64,000 bases of DNA from Eledone cirrhosa. Its lineage: Eukaryota. Numbering within the stretch: position 1 is the stretch's first letter; every line of letters begins with the position of its first letter. Shown here piece after piece: positions 1-21,941 of the stretch. The position numbers were made by a program, and so were the translations under genes. Location: NCBI GenBank assembly GCA_964016885.1, contig OZ024747.1:31186001-31250000 (forward strand). Reading direction: 5' to 3'. Below the pieces are notes generated by a model. The model ran no database searches. It saw only the letters and a list, made by a program, of their open reading frames with translations, and was not told the DNA's origin.

Positions 1-299
1 AATAATTTTTTTAAAAAATACTCCTACATTCTAAAAGTTATATTAAAAAAATCAGAACTTTTCAAATTATATATATATATATATGATTTGAAAAGTTCTG
101 ATTTATATATATATATATATATATATACATTGGACTTTGTATAACACTCTTTGGCAATCATATACTCTCCTATATAGCTCTCTGCATGCAAATAGAGTTA
201 TATTTTTACCCTTGCTATATATATATATATAAGGATAGAACCAGATAAAACTAATTAGATCATTACTCAACAGAGTACTCGATACTTGGGATAGTAGAG

Positions 300-419
<120 letters not shown>

Positions 420-1563
420 CTTTATACCTTGAAATATCAGTGGCAGAGTGGCTAAAGTGTTGAGCTACTAAATTGAAAATTAAAAGTTAGAACACATTTA
501 ATATGTTAAACGAGGATCTTGAATCCACAAGCTATTGAAGAAATAGATATATTTTGTTGGTCATATGCTTTTGTTGCAGTTGTTTAGCTATAGGCCTGTT
601 CTGAGTAAGCAGACCTGTAATCAATAGTAAGTTAGCCATGACCATCCTGATTCAGCAAACTTAGGATCAACTATTTATTAGTACGGTCTGTAAGTAGTAT
701 ATGGATAAAAGCTGGAGGGTAGATTAATTTCAAATTGTATCCATTTTTCTTTGTTCTGTAAAATCAAAGACTCTAAAACGACTTTATAAAAGCTAACACA
801 ATATTGTTAAACCTTCCTATAGATCAAAGGATGTATAGTTTAAGCCGTTTCTAGACTTTCGTGGGACGTTACTCGCTCTCTCTCTCTCTCTCTGAATATC
901 AAACACTTTAATTGTATCTCTCTCTGTATAACGGTCTATCTCTCTTTTTCTGTCTCTCCCTCTGTGTTTCTCTCTCTCTTTAGATGTGTGCATATATATT
1001 TGTGTGTGTGTGTGTAGTGTTTGTGTGATTCAACCTACCAACCAATAAACATCTCTTTTATATATAGAGAGAGATTTCATATAAAGATTGGTCATACTCT
1101 CATATGAATTAGTCAACATATTATAAATGAAAGTTTATACAGTAACTTGCCCAAAATAAAAAATAACAATTGCTCAAAGTAATTAGCAGGAAATTGCTGG
1201 AGAAGTAAGTAGGAAGTCATACACAAGCTACTATTTTGGGAACCAAGTCATGGGAGAAGCAGTAGAGGAAGACCTGCTCAAACATTCATTGATCAATCTT
1301 CAGACAATACAAACCTTCCCTTGATGCCTAAGCTTGTGCTTATTTTGCTTAATAGTTAATACAGCCCTGGTCTTGAAATTAGGTTACATGTATGGCTCAA
1401 TTTCTGTAGGTGGCTCTCAGTCATTGAAACAACTTATTTCACTACATTATACCTCACGAATTATGGCAGCTTTTCACAATAAAAGCAAATTGATATGCAC
1501 ATGAACATACACACATTACATATATATATATACATATATATACAAATATATATATATACAAAT

Positions 1564-1752
1564 ATCATCATCGATTAATGTCTGTCTTCCACGCTAGCAT
1601 GGGTTAGACGGGTTTGTCCCATTTAGAGGCAAGTTGGGTCGGGTGACCATATCTCGCTCATATAGGAGTGATTCTGGCTGAATTCCTATGGCTGGATAAA
1701 TTTCCTAACACCAACCACATTGACAGTGTGGGCTGAGTGCTTTTTGTTGTGA
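1564..1752 (-). mobile_element. RTE-type 3' tail / non-autonomous RTE-derived fragment
   Basis: (CAT)n tail, GTCTTCCACGCTAGCATGGGTTAGACGG and TTCCTAACACCAACCAC motifs shared with the RTE copies at 11065 and 42236. Confidence 0.7.
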
Positions 1753-1827
1753 GAATCCTTTTACAGTCTGAGCTGGATATTTTGTGGTACCAGTATAATA
1801 CACACACACATGCACACAGACACACAG

Positions 1828-1894
<67 letters not shown>

Positions 1895-1910
1895 AGTTTT
1901 AATATAGATG

Positions 1911-1961
1911 AGATTCTACAGGACTAGAACTGTTTCATTCTTTAGAAATCATCAGGAATCT
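1911..1961 (-). ncRNA. Type I hammerhead ribozyme motif (family A)
   Basis: Minus strand reads AGATTC-CTGATGA-TTTCTAAAGAAT-GAAA-CAG-TTCTAGTC-CTG-TA-GAATCT: intact core, 6-bp stem I, stem III CAG/CTG; flanked by (TA)n. Confidence 0.75.
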
Positions 1962-1974
1962 GGGTATATAAAAG

Positions 1975-2016
<42 letters not shown>

Positions 2017-2295
2017 TACATGCACATATCATGGTAATGATATACATATATATTCGCGTGCATGTACATATACCATATATATATGCAATATACATACACA
2101 TATCATATATATACATATGCACTTCATATATATATACACACATAAATATATCATCAACTTTGTTGATTAGCGTCCAGCATTCATGGGTAGGACGGTTTGA
2201 CCCTTAGGAAAAAAAATAGGTCAGGAGACCATGTTTAACTCACCCAGGGCAGATTTTGGCTTGGTTTCGGTGACCTTCCTACTGCCAACCACAAT

Positions 2296-4948
2296 ATACA
2301 GTGTGTGCTGGGAGGGTTTTGTCATAACACCGACATGACCACATTACAGTGTGGACTGGGCACCTTTGTCATGTCACCTACACGACCACATTACAGTGTG
2401 GACTGGACACCTTTGTCATGTCACCTACATGACCACATTAGTGTGGACTGGGCACCTTTGTCATGTCACAGACATGACTATATTACAGTGTAGACTGGAC
2501 ACCTTTGTCATGTCACCAACATGACCATATTACAGTGTGGACTGGGCACCTTTGTCAAGTCACCTACATGACCATATTACAGTGTGGACTGGACACCTTT
2601 GTCATGTCACCTACATGACCACATTACAGTGTGGACTGGACACCTTTGTCATGTCACCGACATGACCACATTACAGTGTGGACTGGACACCTTTGTCATG
2701 TCACCTACATGACCACATTACAGTGTGCATTGGGCACCTTTGTCATGTCACCGACACAACCACTTTACAGTGTGGACTGGGCACCTTTGTCATGTCACCA
2801 ACATGACCATATTACAGTGTAGACTGGGTACCTTTGTCATGTCACAGACATGACCACATTACAGTGTGGACTAGGCAACTTTGTCATGTAACCAACATAA
2901 CCACATTACAGTGTGGAATAGGCACCTTTGTCATGTCACCTACATGACCACATTACAGTGTGGACTGGACACCTTTGTCATGTCACCAACATGACCATAT
3001 AACATTGTAGACTGGGCACTTTTGTCTTGTCGCCAACATGACCACATTACAATGTGGAATAGGCACCTTTGTCATGTCACCTACACGACCACATTACAGT
3101 GTGGACTGGACACCTTTGTCATGGACACCTTTGTCATGTCACCTACATGACCACATTACAGTGTGGACTGGGCACCTTTGTCATGTCACCAACAGACCAC
3201 ATTACAGTGTGGAGTGGACACCTTTGTCATGTCACCGACACGACACCTTTGTCATGTCACCGACACAACCACTTTACAGTGTGGACTGGACACCTTTGTC
3301 ATGACACCAACATGACCACATTACAGTGTGGACTAGGCACCTTTGTCATGTCACCGACATGACCACATTACAGTGTGGACTGGGCTCCTTTGTCATGTCA
3401 CCAACATGACCACATTACAGTGTGGAATAGGCACCTTTGTCATGTCACCTACATGGCCACATTACAATGTGGACTGGGCACCTTGTCATGTCACCGACAC
3501 GACCACATTACAGTATGGACTGGGCACCTTTGTCATGTCAACTACACAACCACTTTACAGTGTGGACAGGACACCTTTGTCATGTCACCTACACGACCAC
3601 TTTACAGTGTGGACTGGACATCTTTGTCATGTTACCGACAGGACCACATTACAGTATGGACTGGACATCTTTGTCATGTCACAGACATGACCACTTTACA
3701 GTGTGGACTGGACACCTTTTTCATGTCACCTACATGACCACATTACAGTGTGGACTGGGTACCTTTGATCATGTCACCGACACGACCACATTACAGTGTG
3801 GACTGGACACCTTTGTCATGTCACCTACATGACCACATTACAGTGTGGACTGGACACCTTTGTCATGTCACCGACAGGACCACATTACAGTGTGGACTGG
3901 ACACCTTTGTCATGTCACCTACATGACCACTTTACAGTGTGGACTGGGCACCTTTGTCATGTCACCAACATGACCACATTACAGTGTGGACTGGACACCT
4001 TTGTCATGTCACCTACATGACCACATTACAGTGTGGACTGGGCACCTTTGTCATGTCACCAACATGACCACATTACAGTGTGGAGTGGACACCTTTGTCA
4101 TGTCACCGACATGACCACATTACCATGTGGGCTTGGCACCTTTGTCATGTCACCTACATGACCATGTTACAGTGTGGACTGGGTACCTTTGTCTTGTCAC
4201 CAACACGACTACATTAGAGTGTGGACTGGACACCTTTCTCATGTCACAGATATGACCACATTACAGTGTGGACTGGACACCTTTGTCATGTCACCTACAT
4301 GACCACATTACAGTGTGGACTGGGGACCTTTGTCATGTCACCGACATGACCACTTTACAGTGTGGACTGGACAACTTTGTCATGACACCGACATGACCAC
4401 ATTACAGTGTGGACTGGAGACCTTTGTCATGTCACCGACACGACCACTTTACAGTGTGGACTGGACACCTTTGTCATGACACCAACATGACCACATTACA
4501 GTGTGGACGAGGCACCTTTGTCATGTCACCAACATGACCACATTACAGTGTGGACTAGGCAACTTTGTCATGTCACCGACATGACCACATTACAGTGTGG
4601 ACTGGGCACCTTTGTCATGTCACCGACATGACCACATTACAGTGTGGACTGGACAACTTTGTCATGACACCGACATGACCACATTACAGTGTGGACTGGG
4701 CACATTTGTCTTGTCACCAACATGACCACATTACAGTGTGGACTGGACACCTTTGTCATGTCACCAATATAACCACATAACAATGTGGACTGGGCACCTT
4801 TGTCATGTCACCGACATGACCACATTACAGTGTGGACTGGACACCTTTGTCATGTCACGTACATGACCACATTATAGTGTGTATTGGACACCTTTGTCAT
4901 GTCACCGACACAACCACATTACAGTGTGGACTGGGCACCTTTGTCTTG
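2296..4948. repeat. 47-bp minisatellite, about 55 copies
   Basis: Unit ACATGACCACATTACAGTGTGGACTGGACACCTTTGTCATGTCACCN repeated in tandem with small variants. Confidence 0.97.
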
Positions 4949-14668: not shown

Positions 14669-14787
14669 ATAAACCTTTCAAGGATTTACACCAGTCCAGC
14701 CTCCTGTTATTTCATTTATATATATATATATATATAAATATATATACAAATATATATATGTTGTTGTATCTATCTATTTGAACATAG

Positions 14788-16295
14788 CTAAAGACTGGTG
14801 CAGCACTATTCTCATAAATTGCTACAAAGGTAAAGGGGATGCTCTGGAGAGGAGCAATTATAGGGGTATAAAACTGATGGATCAGGTTATGAAAGTGGCA
14901 GAAAGGATATTAGCACAACTAATTAGAGAAAGGGTCAAACTAGATGAGATACAGTTTGGTTTTGTGCCTGGGAAGAGCACAACAGATGCCCTCTTCTTTG
15001 TGAGACAATTGCAAGAGAGGTTCTAAGAGAAAAATAAGCCACTATACTTAACCTTTGTTGGCCTAGAGATGGCCTTTGATAGGGTACCCCGATCTGTCAT
15101 CTGGTGGTCCCTAAGGAAACTAGGTGTGGAGGAATGGCTTGTGAGGACAGTGCAAACTTTGTACAGAGGTACTGTCAGTAAAGTCAGGGTAGGAATGGAG
15201 TTTAGTGAGAAATTCCAGATACAAGTAGGAGTACATCAAGGTTCGGTCCTCAGCCCGCTCTTGTTCATTATAGTCCTCCAAGCCATAACAGAGGAGTTTA
15301 AGATTGGCTGTCCATGGGAACTTCTCTATGCTGACGATCTGGTTCTTATAGCAGAATCAGTAGAGGAGCTAAAGAATAAATTCTGGCTATGGAAACAGCA
15401 GTTGGAAGCAAGAGGACTGAGAGTGAACCTAGCTAAGACAAAAGTGTTGATGGTAGAAAAGAGGACAAAACTGTGATTCCATCAGGAAATGGCCATGTTC
15501 GATATGCAGAAAAGGAACTGGCATAAATTCTATAAAATGCACACAATGCAGATCCTGGGCACACAAGAGATGTCGCGGGATAGCAGGTAAACTAACAGGT
15601 AGGGAGAAATATGTATGCAGTAGATGTACAGGGAAATTAGACAGTAGAAGTCGCATTGATAGACACATTTTTCAAATGCAGGCGGGTGCTATAGAAAAGG
15701 TGGATAGCTTCCGGTACCTAGGAGATCAGATTAGCATGGAGGGGGGGGGGGGGTCTGAGGCCATAGTATCTAGAATAAGGATGGGTTGGAAGAAGTTTAG
15801 GGAGCTGCTTCCTCTGCTGATGAAGAAGGGTTACTCCCTGCGTACGAAAGGCCGGTTATATGATGCCTGTGTGAGGAGCGCGATGCTGCATGGTAGTGAG
15901 ACATGGGCAGCAACTGCAGAGGATATTCGATGGCTGGAGAGAAATGAGGCAAGCATGCTCTTTTGGATGTGCAGTGTCAATGTGCGTGAACGACCCAGCA
16001 TGAATGCGTTGAGAGAGAAACTGTGTCTGAGAGGGATAGAATGTAGTGTACGGGAGGAGACTGAGGTGGTATGGATATGTGATGCACATGGAGGATGACC
16101 GATGGGTGAAGAAGTGCCAGGAAATGCCAGTTGAAGGAAGACGTGGTAGAGGTAGACCACAAAAAACATGGGCAGAGTGGTGAGAACAGACCTCAGATCG
16201 CTGAAACCCACGGTGGAGATGACGAAGGACCGTGACAAGTGGAGAGATGGTGTGCTGAATAAGACCCATCCCACCCTTGCAAGCAGGGAAGATGA
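14788..16295 (+). mobile_element. 5'-truncated RTE-clade LINE (RT domain, decayed)
   Basis: YKGKGDALERSNYRGIKL, QFGFVPGKSTTDA, GVHQGSVLSPLLF, LLYADDLVL; stops and frameshifts. Confidence 0.93.
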
Positions 16296-16330: not shown

Positions 16331-16522
16331 ATAGGAAAATGTTTATTCCCGACGGCAAAGCTCAAACTGTTTCGACGGGTATTTCTGTTCAGAAATAGCC
16401 GTCGGAACGGCTTGAGCTCTGCCGTCGGGGCCAAACATTTTCCTGTTATCCATTCTACTACCCTAAGTATTGAGTACTCTGGTGCGTTATGGTCCATCTG
16501 GTTCCTTACCACTCAGCCTTCG

Positions 16523-16708: not shown

Positions 16709-16760
<52 letters not shown>

Positions 16761-16770
16761 TGTATGTATG

Positions 16771-16906
16771 TTTTCTCCTCTTAATTTCGAGTATATTTTT
16801 TTGACCGGCCACCTTCCTGGTGGCAAGGTTGTAAAAGAAAAGAAATTGTCATCCCTTGAATCGGAAGAATGTTTTGCAAATTTTGAAGGTGCCAGCTATC
16901 GCAGCC

Positions 16907-16908
<2 letters not shown>
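16771..16908 (-). mobile_element. R4/Dong-like element, short 3' fragment (copy 1)
   Basis: Matches the 3' end of 18348-20933; flanked by (TATG)n. Confidence 0.9.
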
Positions 16909-16937
<29 letters not shown>

Positions 16938-16975
16938 TGTATGTATGTATGTATGTATGTATGTATGTATGTATG

Positions 16976-17122
16976 TTTTCTCTTTCTCTTTCTCTTAATT
17001 TCGAGTATATTTTTTTTTGACCGGCCACCTTCCTGGTGGCAAGGTTGTAAAAGAAAAGAAATTGTCATCCCTTGAATCGGAAGAATGTTTTGCAAATTTT
17101 GAAGGTGCCAGCTATCGCAGCC

Positions 17123-17124
<2 letters not shown>
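16976..17124 (-). mobile_element. R4/Dong-like element, short 3' fragment (copy 2)
   Basis: Same truncation point and same variants as copy 1. Confidence 0.9.
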
Positions 17125-17153
<29 letters not shown>

Positions 17154-17899
17154 TGTATGTATGTATGTATGTATGTATGTATGTATGTATGTATGTATGT
17201 ATGTATGTATGTATGTATGTATGTATGTATGTATGTATGTATGTATGTATGTATGTATGTATGTATGTATGTATGTATGTATGTATGTATGTATGTATGT
17301 ATGTATGTATGTATGTATGTATGTATGTATGTATGTATGTATGTATGTATGTATGTATGTATGTATGTATGTATGTATGTATGTATGTATGTATGTATGT
17401 ATGTATGTATGTATGTATGTATGTATGTATGTATGTATGTATGTATGTATGTATGTATGTATGTATGTATGTATGTATGTATGTATGTATGTATGTATGT
17501 ATGTATGTATGTATGTATGTATGTATGTATGTATGTATGTATGTATGTATGTATGTATGTATGTATGTATGTATGTATGTATGTATGTATGTATGTATGT
17601 ATGTATGTATGTATGTATGTATGTATGTATGTATGTATGTATGTATGTATGTATGTATGTATGTATGTATGTATGTATGTATGTATGTATGTATGTATGT
17701 ATGTATGTATGTATGTATGTATGTATGTATGTATGTATGTATGTATGTATGTATGTATGTATGTATGTATGTATGTATGTATGTATGTATGTATGTATGT
17801 ATGTATGTATGTATGTATGTATGTATGTATGTATGTATGTATGTATGTATGTATGTATGTATGTATGTATGTATGTATGTATGTATGTATGTATGTATG
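17125..17899. repeat. Pure (TATG)n microsatellite, about 775 bp
   Basis: Uninterrupted tetranucleotide run. Confidence 0.99.
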
Positions 17900-18303
17900 T
17901 TTTCTCTTTCTCTTTCTCTTAATTTCGAGTATATTTTTTTTTGACCGGCCACCTTCCTGGTGGCAAGGTTGTAAAAGAAAAGAAATTGTCATCCCTTGAA
18001 TCGCAAGAATGTTTTGCATATTTTGAAGGTGCCAGCTATCGCAGCCATTTGTAGACTATGAATTAGGGAGCTGCGCTTTTTGTCCGCAAATCCAAGTTCG
18101 GTCATACTTTGGTCCAAGCGGGTTGGTATATAGCCCGTAGCACCAATAATGATGGATATGAAGCTAAAGGTGTATCTTGGATACTGGATTTGTAAGCTCC
18201 TCATCAATGGTCCGTAGATGTCCTCCTTCTCCTGTATTTTTCTGACAACGTTTACATCAAGTGGGCAGCTGATCTCCACAACAGAACACGTTTTCAATGT
18301 GTG
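17900..18303 (-). mobile_element. R4/Dong-like element, 400-bp 3' fragment (copy 3)
   Basis: Nearly identical to 18348-18743; flanked by (TATG)n. Confidence 0.92.
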
Positions 18304-18347
18304 TATGTATGTATGTATGTATGTATGTATGTATGTATGTATGTATG

Positions 18348-20933
18348 TTTTCTCTTTCTCTTAATTTTGAGTATATTTCTTTGACCGGCCACCTTCCTGG
18401 TGGCAAGGTTGTAAAAGAAAAGAAATTGTCATCCCTTGAATCGCAAGAATGTTTTGCATATTTTGAAGGTGCCAGCTATCGCAGCCATTTGTAGACTATG
18501 AATTAGGGAGCTGCGCTTTTTGTCCGCAAATCCAAGTTCGGTCATACTTTGGTCCAAGCGGGTTGGTATATAACCCGTAGCACCAATAATGATGGGTATG
18601 AAGCTAAAGGTGTATCTTGGATACTGGATTTGTAAGCTCCTCATCAATGGTCCGTAGATGTCCTCCTTCTCCTGTATTTTTCTGACAACGTTTACATCAA
18701 GTGGGCAGCTGATCTCCACAACAGAACACGTTTTCAATGTGTGGTCCCAAACTACAATATCAGGCCGGTTGTGCTTTAATTTGGTGGCAGTTTTTATTTT
18801 CAGGTTCCACCAGTATTCCTTAGTGCCATCTGTCTCAATATATTCTTCCTCGTTTGTTGTTAATTTTGTTTTCCGAAGTGCGTTCCAGATAGTTCTAGCT
18901 ATCCCATCGTGTCTCATGGGGAGGTAGTAGCGAGATGACATTCTTTCGCAGCTGGCAACAATGTGGCTTACATCCTCGATCTTTGTTTTACATAGCCTAC
19001 ATTTATTGTCAGCTGCTGGCTCTCCTCTTTTGTGCAGCAGATATTTGGTAGGGAGTTCTTGTTCCTGTATTGCATAGAGATATCCCTCAAGGTGTGATGT
19101 CATAAACTTGTCGGAACTCCATGCCAGGCTTTTTGAGTGGTTTATCCCCTCTATGGTCTGTGTTTTACGCCTCAAGTATCCATGCACAACTTTCTCTGTA
19201 AATTGGTCAATTTTTTTCTCTTGTTTGAACATTGAATAGGATCTTCCGATTTCTCTGGGTGAGAGATTTATATCAGGCTTTATTCCATATCTCTCCTCCA
19301 GATCAGTCACTATTCTAATGATATTTCTTTTTTCATGCTCATAAACCTGAGCAAGATGGTCGCCAACCTTTTTCCTCTGTTGAAGGTGTTGCTTCAGTGT
19401 TACTATCCGGGTCTCATATGTTGTTAATATTGATTTTAGACCCCGGCCACCTTCCTTGCGTGAGAAGTATAGCCTATCCACATCACCATTGATGTTAAAG
19501 TTCCCAGTAACACTGAGAAGTTTTCGAGTTCTAACATCCATCTCACTTAGTTCTTGCAATGACCAGTTCAGTAGGCCAAATGTTGGCGTTAGAATTGGCA
19601 CAGCATAGGTATTGTGGGCAATGTATTTGTTGTATGCTGACAGTTCTGATGACCATATTTTTTTTACTCTTCTGAGGTATTCAGTTCTGGTTCTCTCCTT
19701 ATTTATGGGTCCATCATATCTGACATTCTCATCCTGTCCAAGATATCTGTAGTTGTCACCTGACTGCAGAGGTTGTATTGTCAGGCCGTTCATATCTAGA
19801 TTTCTAGAGGAGGGCACAGCTCTTCCACGTTTTACTGCCAAATATGCACACTTGGACTCACCAAATTTCATTTTGATGTCGGTTGAAAATTGTGTAATGA
19901 GGTCCAATTGTTTCTTGATGTCATTGATATTTGGCCCATACAACTTCAGGTCATCAACAAAGAAAAGATGGGAGATACTTCTGGGCCCACTTCTTTGTCC
20001 ACCTTGTTTCCTGAGTAGGTAAGATAGTGGATTCAGTGAGAGAACGAAGAGTAGTACTGACAAGCTATCACCCTGAAAGATGCCCTTCTGGTAATGTATC
20101 CTATCAGTCTTAACCTGCTCCTTCTCACCTCTAAGGATCAAATTGGTGTACCAGTTCTTGGTCAGGCATTCAACAGCAGCTACTAATGGTTGTGGGACTT
20201 TAGCTAACTGTAAAGCCTTAATAATCCACCCATGAGGTACACTATCAAATGCTTTTTGATAGTCCAGCCACACGACAGTCATGTTTCTGCGATTCTTTGT
20301 TGTTTTTTCCTGAATCATTTTGTTAGTTAGTAGGTGATCTATGCAACCCCACACCTCCGTCTTTCCACCAGCTTGCTCAGGTGTTATGATGTTGTTGGTA
20401 GCACAGTGATCCTGTAAGAACAGGTTAAGGCACCCAGTATATAATTTATACATGATGTTTTGGCAGGCAATTGGGCGGTAATTTTTAGCAAGGGTGGTTT
20501 GGCTATTTTGGGGAATGAGGAGAGTAGTGGCAGTTGATAACCATCTGGGCAGTTCTTGTGTGCCCTTAATGGTTTCTGTAAACAGCCGTATGAGATCTTG
20601 CCGATAGAAAGTGAAATTCTTCAACCAGTATCCTGTAATGAGGTCTGGGCCTGGCGATTTCCTATTCGACATTTTCTGTAGAGCTGTTTCCAGTATTGAC
20701 CCATCTATGTCATATTGTTTTGTCTGGACATGTTGGCAGTAGTCCTGTTCCAGTTGTTTTAGCCAATTAGCTTGTCTGTTGAATCCGTCATCCGTTTCCC
20801 ATACAGATCTCCAGTAGTTCTCAACCTGTTCTTTTGAAGGGGTGTCGTTTACAGGGATTGAGCTTTTGCCACCGAAGCTGCGATAAACTGATTTAGGATC
20901 TCTGGCAAACAATCTATTTAGCACTTGTCGTTT
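18348..20933 (-). mobile_element. R4/Dong-like RLE non-LTR retrotransposon, 5'-truncated (copy 4)
   Basis: Contains an uninterrupted RT + CCHC + RLE ORF; both ends abut (CATA)n. Confidence 0.9.
18429..20933 (-). CDS. Reverse transcriptase, zinc knuckle and restriction-like endonuclease (R4 clade), no native start
   Basis: KSPGPD, NYRPIAC, WLDYQKAFDSVPH, GIFQGDSLS, HLFFVDDLKLY, CRLC...HIVASC, RHD, RPDIVVWD...VVEISCP. The first ~16 aa of the tracked ORF are microsatellite. Confidence 0.92.
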   Translation of the reverse strand, partial: KRQVLNRLFARDPKSVYRSFGGKSSIPVNDTPSKEQVENYWRSVWETDDGFNRQANWLKQLEQDYCQHVQTKQYDIDGSILETALQKMSNRKSPGPDLITGYWLKNFTFYRQDLIRLFTETIKGTQELPRWLSTATTLLIPQNSQTTLAKNYRPIACQNIMYKLYTGCLNLFLQDHCATNNIITPEQAGGKTEVWGCIDHLLTNKMIQEKTTKNRRNMTVVWLDYQKAFDSVPHGWIIKALQLAKVPQPLVAAVECLTKNWYTNLILRGEKEQVKTDRIHYQKGIFQGDSLSVLLFVLSLNPLSYLLRKQGGQRSGPRSISHLFFVDDLKLYGPNINDIKKQLDLITQFSTDIKMKFGESKCAYLAVKRGRAVPSSRNLDMNGLTIQPLQSGDNYRYLGQDENVRYDGPINKERTRTEYLRRVKKIWSSELSAYNKYIAHNTYAVPILTPTFGLLNWSLQELSEMDVRTRKLLSVTGNFNINGDVDRLYFSRKEGGRGLKSILTTYETRIVTLKQHLQQRKKVGDHLAQVYEHEKRNIIRIVTDLEERYGIKPDINLSPREIGRSYSMFKQEKKIDQFTEKVVHGYLRRKTQTIEGINHSKSLAWSSDKFMTSHLEGYLYAIQEQELPTKYLLHKRGEPAADNKCRLCKTKIEDVSHIVASCERMSSRYYLPMRHDGIARTIWNALRKTKLTTNEEEYIETDGTKEYWWNLKIKTATKLKHNRPDIVVWDHTLKTCSVVEISCPLDVNVVRKIQEKEDIYGPLMRSLQIQYPRYTFSFIPIIIGATGYIPTRLDQSMTELGFADKKRSSLIHSLQMAAIAGTFKICKTFLRFKG

Positions 20934-20976
20934 ATGTATGTATGTATGTATGTATGTATATATATATATATATATA

Positions 20977-21310: not shown

Positions 21311-21533
21311 AATATAAATATATATATACAAATATATATATATATATATTTATTTAGGTTTGTTTGTACACCACTGGATAGAACTGGTCATTCCGTATAG
21401 TCAAGCTCGATGTAATCTTAGGGAGAGCACTCAACATAATGTAACTCACCCGTCTTCGTTTGTGTAGAGTACGGAGTTAATTATTATAAAATAACAAGAG
21501 GCTGGACAGGTGTAAATCCTTGAAAGGTTTATT

Positions 21534-21591
21534 ATACTATGATCATTTCAATGACCGGGTTCAGTATGAATCCGGTGATATCATCAGGTAT
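21534..21591 (-). ncRNA. Minimal hammerhead motif (family E)
   Basis: ATAC-CTGATGA-TATCACCGG ATTCATACTGAAC CCGGTCATT-GAAA-TGATCA-TA-GTAT. Confidence 0.78.
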
Positions 21592-21788
21592 TTGAAATAT
21601 AACAAAGGAATAATATAGACAAAATCCATGGGGCTGAAAATCAGAGACATGAGGGTGACCGGACATTTAGCAGCTTCTATGCCTGTTATGCCAACCAGGG
21701 TAGAATCTGCTAAATGTCCGGTCGCCCACATGTCTCTGATTTTCAGCCCCATGGATTTTGTCTATTATATTCCTTTGTTATATTTCGA

Positions 21789-21846
21789 ATACCTGATGAT
21801 GTCACCGGATTCATACTGAGCCCGGTCATTGAAAAGATCACAGTAT
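21789..21846 (+). ncRNA. Hammerhead motif (family E), cleavage site mutated
   Basis: ATAC-CTGATGA...GAAA-AGATCA-CA-GTAT. Confidence 0.55.
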
Positions 21847-21941
21847 AATAAACATTTTAAGGAATTACACCAGTCCAACCTGTTATTATTATGTATATAT
21901 ATATATATAAATATACAAATATATATTTGTATATATATATA

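What the first reader, a model, noticed from the sequence alone, without database searches (positions are those of the whole stretch)
16731..20960. Young R4/Dong-like retrotransposon apparently specific for (CATA)n, stacked four times
Seen: four same-orientation copies (about 138, 149, 400 and 2590 bp), each ending GAGAAAA|CATACATAC on minus and each 5' junction joined to (CATA)n. The long copy keeps ~830 aa of open RT-CCHC-RLE, and the copies are nearly identical. Established: R4-clade RLE elements are target-specific (R4 at rDNA, Dong at TAA repeats). Inference: an active lineage whose RLE recognises the tetranucleotide (CATA)n, a target I do not recognise as described. It could be a new site-specific insertion enzyme.
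Basis: partly seen in the sequence, partly recalled or inferred. Interest (0 to 1): 0.75.

Follow-up and report, generated by a model that had tools for sequence, protein, structure and literature searches.

The report
Retrotransposon lineage targeting CATA microsatellites
This is a young jumping gene with over 4,000 copies that sits inside CATA-repeat DNA at about nine in ten sampled sites and faces one way, likely because its own protein picks that repeat, whereas its best-known relatives use TAA repeats, so it would offer a natural comparison for how such enzymes change landing site.

Summary
Observation confirmed: four minus-strand, 5'-truncated copies (2584, 398, 147, 136 bp) separated by (CATA)n; the long one keeps 833 open codons (RT, CCHC, RLE). 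The stack is not four independent insertions: two copies share a 5' breakpoint and a private substitution.

The family has 4,420 exact 3'-end matches and intact 4.2-kb copies (1,169-aa ORF). In 87 consecutive copies, 78 have a perfect CATA run of at least 12 nt at the 5' junction (window background 0.0005); none has a (TA)n run that long. So CATA is not merely a tail. A sister family here and relatives from other organisms, flanked by CATA or CTTA, form one branch apart from TAA-flanked Dong-like elements.

Caveats: no empty allele found, no biochemistry, no named R4/Dong sequence in the tree; some 5' CATA may be added at insertion. The repeat is already a known target class (ACAY, APE-type Waldo); for R4/Dong I found no report in 10 searches, but Repbase and key papers were unreadable. 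The scan noted this family before on other DNA of this genome. Verdict: new target variant of Dong-like elements.

The parts
18349..20932 (-). Copy 1: 5'-truncated R4/Dong-like non-LTR retrotransposon, element bases 1640-4223
   Evidence: 99.57% to natural full-length copy L035:2778-7000; 4-nt CATA microhomology at the 5' break
18429..20930 (-). Open reading frame remnant of 833 codons plus stop, lacking the N-terminal 336 aa
19740..20504 (-). Reverse transcriptase domain (FVDD)
   Evidence: Pfam RVT_1 residues 143-397, E=1e-23; best PDB sequence matches are R2 proteins
18948..19001 (-). CCHC zinc knuckle
   Evidence: read from sequence; zf-RVT E=7e-6, below curated cut-off
18432..18800 (-). 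Restriction-like endonuclease region: PD at full-length 1059-1060, E1075, K1091, I1094-Y1095
   Evidence: alignments; K..KY motif defined in PMC4838377
17901..18298 (-). Copy 2: 398 bp, element bases 3834-4223, extra terminal GAGAAA
16977..17123 (-). Copy 3: 147 bp, element bases 4085-4223, extra terminal GAGAAA
16772..16907 (-). Copy 4: 136 bp, same 5' break and private substitution as copy 3 (likely duplicate)
20933..20975 (-). Upstream compound microsatellite: (TA)n then about 6 CATA units
18299..18348 (-). (CATA)n spacer, about 12 units
17124..17900 (-). Perfect (CATA)n spacer, 194 units
   Evidence: 100% matches
16908..16976 (-). (CATA)n spacer, 17 units
16711..16771 (-). Downstream compound microsatellite: about 10 CATA units then (TA)n

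Best explanation
This is a stack of truncated copies of a young R4/Dong-like retrotransposon family that lies in (CATA)n arrays in one orientation, likely because its single protein recognises pre-existing CATA repeats and inserts there by target-primed reverse transcription. Inferred steps: the protein binds its 4.2-kb RNA; the N-terminal three-helix (Myb-like by literature) domain and the RLE engage a CATA array, with more repeat needed upstream than downstream; the RLE nicks the TATG strand; the freed 3' end primes cDNA at the fixed RNA end (GAGAAA, possibly plus a few CAUA bases that pair with the primer); synthesis mostly stops early and the 5' end joins within CATA, often through short microhomology. 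Each insertion leaves CATA on both sides, so this family, a sister family and duplications pile up in the same arrays. Shown: anatomy, flanks, polarity, copy number, intact ORFs. Inferred: cleavage, which domain reads the repeat, present-day activity.
For: 78 of 87 5' junctions have a perfect CATA run of at least 12 nt within 25 nt, against 0.0005 of 16,830 window positions; 24 of the 25 youngest copies. 28 of 30 full-length 5' ends. Polarity: CATA 4-mer fraction 0.77 versus TATG 0.014 in the 40 nt upstream. 0 of 87 have a (TA)n run of 12 nt or more at the 5' junction although (TA)n dominates the window, 63 runs versus 2. Control: an unrelated 609-bp repeat of the same genome sits mostly in (TA)n-type repeats, with CATA at 6 of 30 constant ends. 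Arrays often pre-exist: variant repeat 10-mers shared between the 5' and 3' flank of the same copy number 187 versus 89 +/- 19 (maximum 159 in 1,000 shuffles). The downstream match falls to 83% at base 5, so any encoded tail is short. A Dong-like family in the same genome shows the same anatomy on TAA, 12 of 14 5' junctions. All CATA- and CTTA-flanked rows fall in one 23-row branch (SH-like 100, length 0.54) with no TAA-flanked row. The catalytic K of K..KY is kept. 7 of 18 full-length copies held have an intact ORF.
Against: No empty allele was seen, so pre-existence is statistical. 5' runs are longer than 3' runs (median 46 versus 17, p=6.5e-5), and two copies look like a duplicated target followed by extra pure CATA; both also fit repeat addition. 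9 of 87 junctions lack the run, 4 of them in non-repeat DNA and 1 in the opposite orientation. The older sister family has the run at only 10 of 20 5' junctions. The 18 full-length copies are biased toward young ones: only 1 of the 10 in the positional sample is intact. The Myb identity of the N-terminal domain was not confirmed here.
Confidence: 0.75

Rival explanations
1. The element needs only a short CATA or AT-rich seed and writes much of the 5' (CATA)n itself during insertion (reiterative copying or slippage), so it builds the arrays as well as using them.
For: 5' runs are longer and purer than 3' runs. At C1:3059226 and C1:44521822 an 18-nt and an 8-9-nt stretch recurs on both sides with pure CATA between it and the element; 10 of 62 informative copies show such matches versus 5.3 +/- 1.75 in shuffles (3 of 300). 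A 194-unit perfect array lies inside the stack.
Against: The excess is not significant at stricter thresholds (4 versus 2.3, 58 of 300). Many 5' flanks are degenerate right at the junction and share variant repeats with the 3' flank. An upstream protein footprint explains the asymmetry equally well (inference from R2, recalled).
Confidence: 0.15
2. Targeting comes from RNA-DNA pairing rather than protein reading: a loosely specific nick is productive only where a CAUA tail on the RNA pairs with the TATG primer.
For: Fixed phase at the 3' junction, CATA at 95-100% for the first four bases. A similar role for 3' repeats is proposed for RTE elements (PMC6007223 abstract).
Against: Pairing constrains only the downstream side, yet the upstream side carries the longer, more conserved repeat.
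Confidence: 0.08
3. CATA is only the element's tail, or copies survive passively in microsatellite-rich DNA.
For: The genome is rich in microsatellites and other repeats cluster in them.
Against: 5' junctions of truncated and full-length copies are in CATA at 90-93%, in one orientation, and not in the commoner (TA)n.
Confidence: 0.02

Closest known systems
Dong (R4 clade; Bombyx mori Dong, DongAg, DongBg, ostracod Dong1/2)
   Same: Single ORF with RT, CCHC and RLE, no N-terminal zinc finger, Trp-containing N-terminal helical domain, insertion into a microsatellite with repeat on both sides (PMC3812793; PMC7998251).
   Different: Target is CATA, not TAA; separate long branch from all TAA-flanked relatives, including a TAA family in the same genome; the second K of K..KY is replaced in 19 of 19 branch rows scored; no 5' HDV-like ribozyme detected (inconclusive).
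Waldo (WaldoAg1, WaldoAg2, WaldoFs1; R1 clade)
   Same: Target class ACAY includes ACAT, the same repeat as CATA (PMC3812793 passage).
   Different: Waldo uses an APE endonuclease and belongs to R1; this element has a C-terminal RLE, so the shared repeat would be convergent.
R4 of Ascaris and Rex6
   Same: Same clade-level architecture (PMC7998251 passages; Rex6 from recall).
   Different: R4 targets rDNA; Rex6 is recalled as not site-specific; neither sequence was available for alignment.
Cephalopod 'Dong-R4' repeats in genome annotations
   Same: Recently active Dong-R4 families are reported in Octopus vulgaris (5 families, 1,129 recent insertions; PMC13282606); the best named homologue here is from Argonauta hians, 53-55%.
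   Different: The passages read give no target site; whether those families are this one was not tested.

Membership tests
R4/Dong clade | Single ORF with RT followed by CCHC knuckle and C-terminal PD-(D/E)..K restriction-like endonuclease | tested here: met
   1,169-aa ORF; RVT_1 and zf-RVT; motifs; AlphaFold model pLDDT 84.9 matches R2 structures best
R4/Dong clade | No N-terminal zinc fingers (unlike R2) | tested here: met
   Residues 1-400 of P0002 hold no CCHH/CCHC pattern; none conserved in alignment A1
R4/Dong clade | Divergent N-terminal SANT/Myb-like domain (PMC7998251) | tested here: inconclusive
   Residues 17-75 form three helices at pLDDT about 90 with conserved Trp, aligned across relatives; no Pfam Myb hit; the isolated model was poor (pLDDT 66) and gave no Z above 6.7
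R4/Dong clade | RT phylogeny groups it with named R4, Dong and Rex6 | not testable with these tools
   No named reference sequence was returned; the tree uses unnamed relatives, of which TAA-flanked ones are the proxy for Dong; midpoint root, SH-like support only
R4/Dong clade | HDV-like ribozyme at the 5' end (PMC3774820) | tested here: inconclusive
   No such Rfam match in L035 or L055; a home-made descriptor found none but had no positive control
Dong in the narrow sense | Insertion into a microsatellite, repeat on both sides, fixed orientation | tested here: met
Dong in the narrow sense | (TAA)n target | tested here: not met
   Flanks are CATA; a separate family in this genome uses TAA
Waldo (R1 clade) | N-terminal APE endonuclease | tested here: not met
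   No endonuclease/exonuclease/phosphatase family among Pfam hits of 24 aligned proteins; C-terminal RLE instead
Waldo (R1 clade) | ACAY microsatellite target | tested here: met
   CATA is ACAT

The most novel reading that the evidence does not exclude
A deep, unnamed branch of R4/Dong retrotransposons has moved from TAA to four-letter repeats (CATA here and in another organism, CTTA in others), and the CATA member also lays down fresh CATA at its 5' junction, so it manufactures its own landing sites and drives growth of this microsatellite. The target-switch half is likely (about 0.7); the probability given is for both halves together.
Probability: 0.15. Interest if true: 0.7.

Novelty: new variant of a known kind. 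Interest (0 to 1): 0.42.

Why it matters
Microsatellite targeting by Dong-like elements is known, so the principle is not new. The value is comparative: intact, recently amplified RLE proteins with CATA, CTTA and TAA flanks, two of these types in one genome, make the open question of which domain sets specificity in R4-clade enzymes testable by domain swaps. It also widens the set of natural site-preferring insertion enzymes beyond rDNA-targeting R2, though a dispersed microsatellite is a poor safe harbour. If the element adds repeats, it would also be a source of microsatellites.

Tried and rejected
Empty-site search among held loci: the apparent empty sites were the sister family's 3' end next to the 609-bp repeat, so the order of events is unknown; rejected as evidence. 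overran its output limit and only part was seen. Searching the 3' flank of C1:44521822 showed it is a truncated piece of another LINE, not an interrupted one. Laying contigs of four runs on L061 gave no cover of the unique flank and no empty allele. No RNA holder was listed. The isolated N-terminal fold and its search were uninformative; the protein atlas gave no answer. The slower tree search did not finish, so FastTree was used. Two tree rows are unreliable and were left out of the motif count: L005 picked up the main family instead of the divergent neighbour, and L117 is under half filled; L257 and P0009 lack the motif region. The idea that the K-to-I change in K..KY sets specificity was dropped, because R2Bm mutants in that helix did not change cleavage specificity (PMC4838377 passage). 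The idea that the 609-bp repeat supplies CATA tails was dropped: 6 of 30 constant ends are in CATA. The 3' count printed for the TAA family (9 of 30) comes from a pattern too strict for its AAC/AAT start and is not used. Literature: 10 searches found no report of a CATA target for R4/Dong. Not held: Fell 2025, Burke 1995, Xiong 1993. Not attempted: Kojima and Fujiwara 2003/2004. Repbase was not available and no supplements were read; any of these may already list this target.
Full report
Observation. On the minus strand, window 16711-20975 reads (TA)n, (CATA)6, copy 1 (2584 bp), (CATA)12, copy 2 (398 bp), (CATA)194, copy 3 (147 bp), (CATA)17, copy 4 (136 bp), (CATA)10, (TA)n. Copy 1 holds 833 open codons with RVT_1 at E=1e-23, a CCHC knuckle and RLE motifs; its best solved relatives are R2 proteins. 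Copies 3 and 4 begin at the same element base and share a substitution seen in 2 of 106 copies held; copies 2 and 3 share an extra terminal GAGAAA that none of the 89 sampled 3' ends shows. The stack therefore records at most three 5' junctions plus local duplication or conversion, and is weak evidence by itself.

The family. A 26-nt 3'-end pattern matches 4,420 places, reversed control 0. A 5'-end pattern matches 324. A natural full-length copy (L035:2778-7000) is 4,223 bp with a 1,169-aa ORF. Of 18 full-length copies held with both ends, 7 have an intact frame. That set is biased toward young copies; in the positional sample it is 1 of 10. Several copies are over 99.7% identical to L035. The element is covered in all 30 bins in four public runs under four organism labels. 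In one raw-read run a 5' truncation point is preceded by CATA letters (447 reads, possibly one locus). The best named homologue is an Argonauta hians protein at 53-55%, so the host is probably an octopod (inference).

Target or tail. I took the first 89 3'-end matches along contig C1, chosen without regard to flanks, and dropped 2 whose 5' end lay outside the fetched DNA. Of 87, 78 have a perfect CATA run of at least 12 nt within 25 nt of the 5' junction and 63 have at least 20 nt; the same test passes at 0.0005 of 16,830 window positions. Among the 25 youngest it is 24; among the first 30 full-length 5' ends, 28. The orientation is fixed (CATA 0.77, TATG 0.014; one exception). None of the 87 has a (TA)n run of 12 nt at the 5' junction, although (TA)n is far commoner in the window outside the stack, 63 runs against 2. 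The nine failures are four non-repeat flanks, one inverted array, one (GACA)n, two degenerate CA/TA arrays and one local duplication. Two internal controls: a 609-bp repeat with 25,394 matches sits mostly in (TA)n-type repeats and has CATA at 6 of 30 constant ends, and a Dong-like family with 4,530 matches has TAA at 12 of 14 visible 5' junctions. A tail-only or passive explanation does not fit.

Pre-existing or added. Variant repeat 10-mers are shared between the two flanks of the same copy twice as often as between shuffled pairs (187 versus 89 +/- 19, maximum 159 of 1,000), so many copies sit inside an older microsatellite. Downstream conservation is 95-100% for four bases and 83% at base 5 in 75 anchored copies, so an encoded tail is short at most. 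Against this, 5' runs are longer than 3' runs (median 46 versus 17), and two copies look like a target duplication with extra pure CATA inserted. The excess of such matches is weak (10 of 62 versus 5.3, and not significant at stricter cut-offs). Three attempts to find an empty allele failed. I put pure targeting at 0.75 and substantial repeat addition at 0.15.

The lineage. A sister family in this genome, about 50% identical in protein, has 6,003 3'-end matches; by eye all 30 sampled ends run into CATA-type repeat, and 10 of 20 visible 5' junctions pass the 12-nt test. Among 80 metagenome loci, L256 (45%) has CATA at both ends, L254 has CTTA at both ends, and L253 and L259 have CTTA at one end. 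In a 67-row FastTree tree all of these fall in one 23-row branch (SH-like 100, length 0.54) with no TAA-flanked row; the TAA-flanked rows, including this genome's, lie outside. The root is a midpoint, most rows in the branch have no flank label, and no named R4, Dong or Rex6 is in the tree. In the branch the second lysine of the RLE K..KY motif is replaced in 19 of 19 rows scored, while 38 of 42 scorable rows outside have K or R. The first, catalytic lysine is kept; R2Bm mutants in this helix did not alter cleavage specificity (PMC4838377, abstract and passages), so this is a clade marker only. The CTTA lead came from earlier scan notes and I checked it here.

Protein. The AlphaFold model (pLDDT 84.9) matches R2 structures best. 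Residues 17-75 form a confident three-helix domain. PMC7998251 (passages) reports a divergent SANT/Myb domain at this place in R4/Dong, suggests it directs targeting, and gives (TAA)n as the Dong target in most insects, molluscs and cnidarians. I could not confirm the Myb identity. No 5' HDV-like ribozyme, reported for R4 and Dong (PMC3774820 passages), was detected (inconclusive).

Mechanism. Most likely standard target-primed reverse transcription with protein recognition of upstream CATA, a nick on the TATG strand, priming at the fixed 3' end, frequent 5' truncation with short microhomology, and CATA left on both sides for later insertions. Flanks, polarity and anatomy are shown; cleavage, the reading domain and current activity are inferred.

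Comparison and novelty. Known microsatellite targets are TAA for Dong, ACAY for Waldo, AC for Mino, TC for Kibi and TTC for Koshi (PMC3812793 passages), and TG for Togen, with some HERO families also microsatellite-specific (PMC4640811 passages). CATA equals ACAT, so the repeat is a known target class, but for an APE enzyme. Cephalopod papers list active Dong-R4 families without a target in the passages read (PMC13282606, PMC8967140, PMC9115989, PMC10294476). I also read passages of PMC5035012, PMC13580325 and PMC5786205 and the abstract of PMC6007223. Ten searches found no CATA report for this clade; Repbase, Fell 2025 and the Kojima and Fujiwara papers were not seen, nor any supplements. Earlier notes of this scan describe the same family at other places in this genome; they are not independent support.

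Verdict. Real feature; a Dong-like element with a different, four-letter target, belonging to a distinct branch. New variant of a known kind, interest 0.42.

Noticed in passing
L055:7023-7631 and 25,394 genome matches: A 609-bp non-coding repeat with one constant end and one variably truncated end lies in TA- and CATA-type microsatellites, with polarity apparently opposite to the R4 element; its reverse strand resembles an RTE 5' UTR (motif recalled), so it is likely a bipartite non-autonomous RTE derivative.
   Followed up: partly
L119:about 95-4208; 6,003 genome matches: Older sister R4-like family, about 50% protein identity, also ending in CATA; its own 3' UTR contains CA/CATA-like degenerate repeats.
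   Followed up: partly
L363-L367; 4,530 genome matches: TAA-targeting Dong-like family in the same genome.
   Followed up: partly
L005:1896-2751: A third, more divergent R4-like fragment (about 71% DNA identity) also ends in GAGAAAGAGA followed by CATA-type repeat.
   Followed up: no
L294, L288, L289 (metagenome loci): Distant relatives with (GATA)n at the contig's 5' end, or CT/GA repeats at the 3' end; further possible targets.
   Followed up: no
L035:2778-2790 and L178-L207: Full-length copies start with a variable number of A before ATGGCG, resembling a YY1 site (recalled), which hints at an internal Pol II promoter rather than a ribozyme-cut 5' end.
   Followed up: no
L239-L252: Another high-copy LINE with a YLDDATL RT motif, CRE-like by recall, 1,713 candidates; two truncated copies abut AT-rich repeat.
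   Followed up: no
window 14673-16098: Decayed RTE-type LINE on the plus strand (YADD frame at 15027-15476).
   Followed up: no
window 2318-4945: 47-bp minisatellite, about 55 copies.
   Followed up: no
window 21485-21895 and 16333-16444: Near-perfect long inverted repeats (195-nt arms, 90%; 55-nt arms, 85%), possibly MITE-like.
   Followed up: no
window 17124-17900: 194 perfect CATA units, far longer than other arrays seen; recent slippage or an assembly effect.
   Followed up: no
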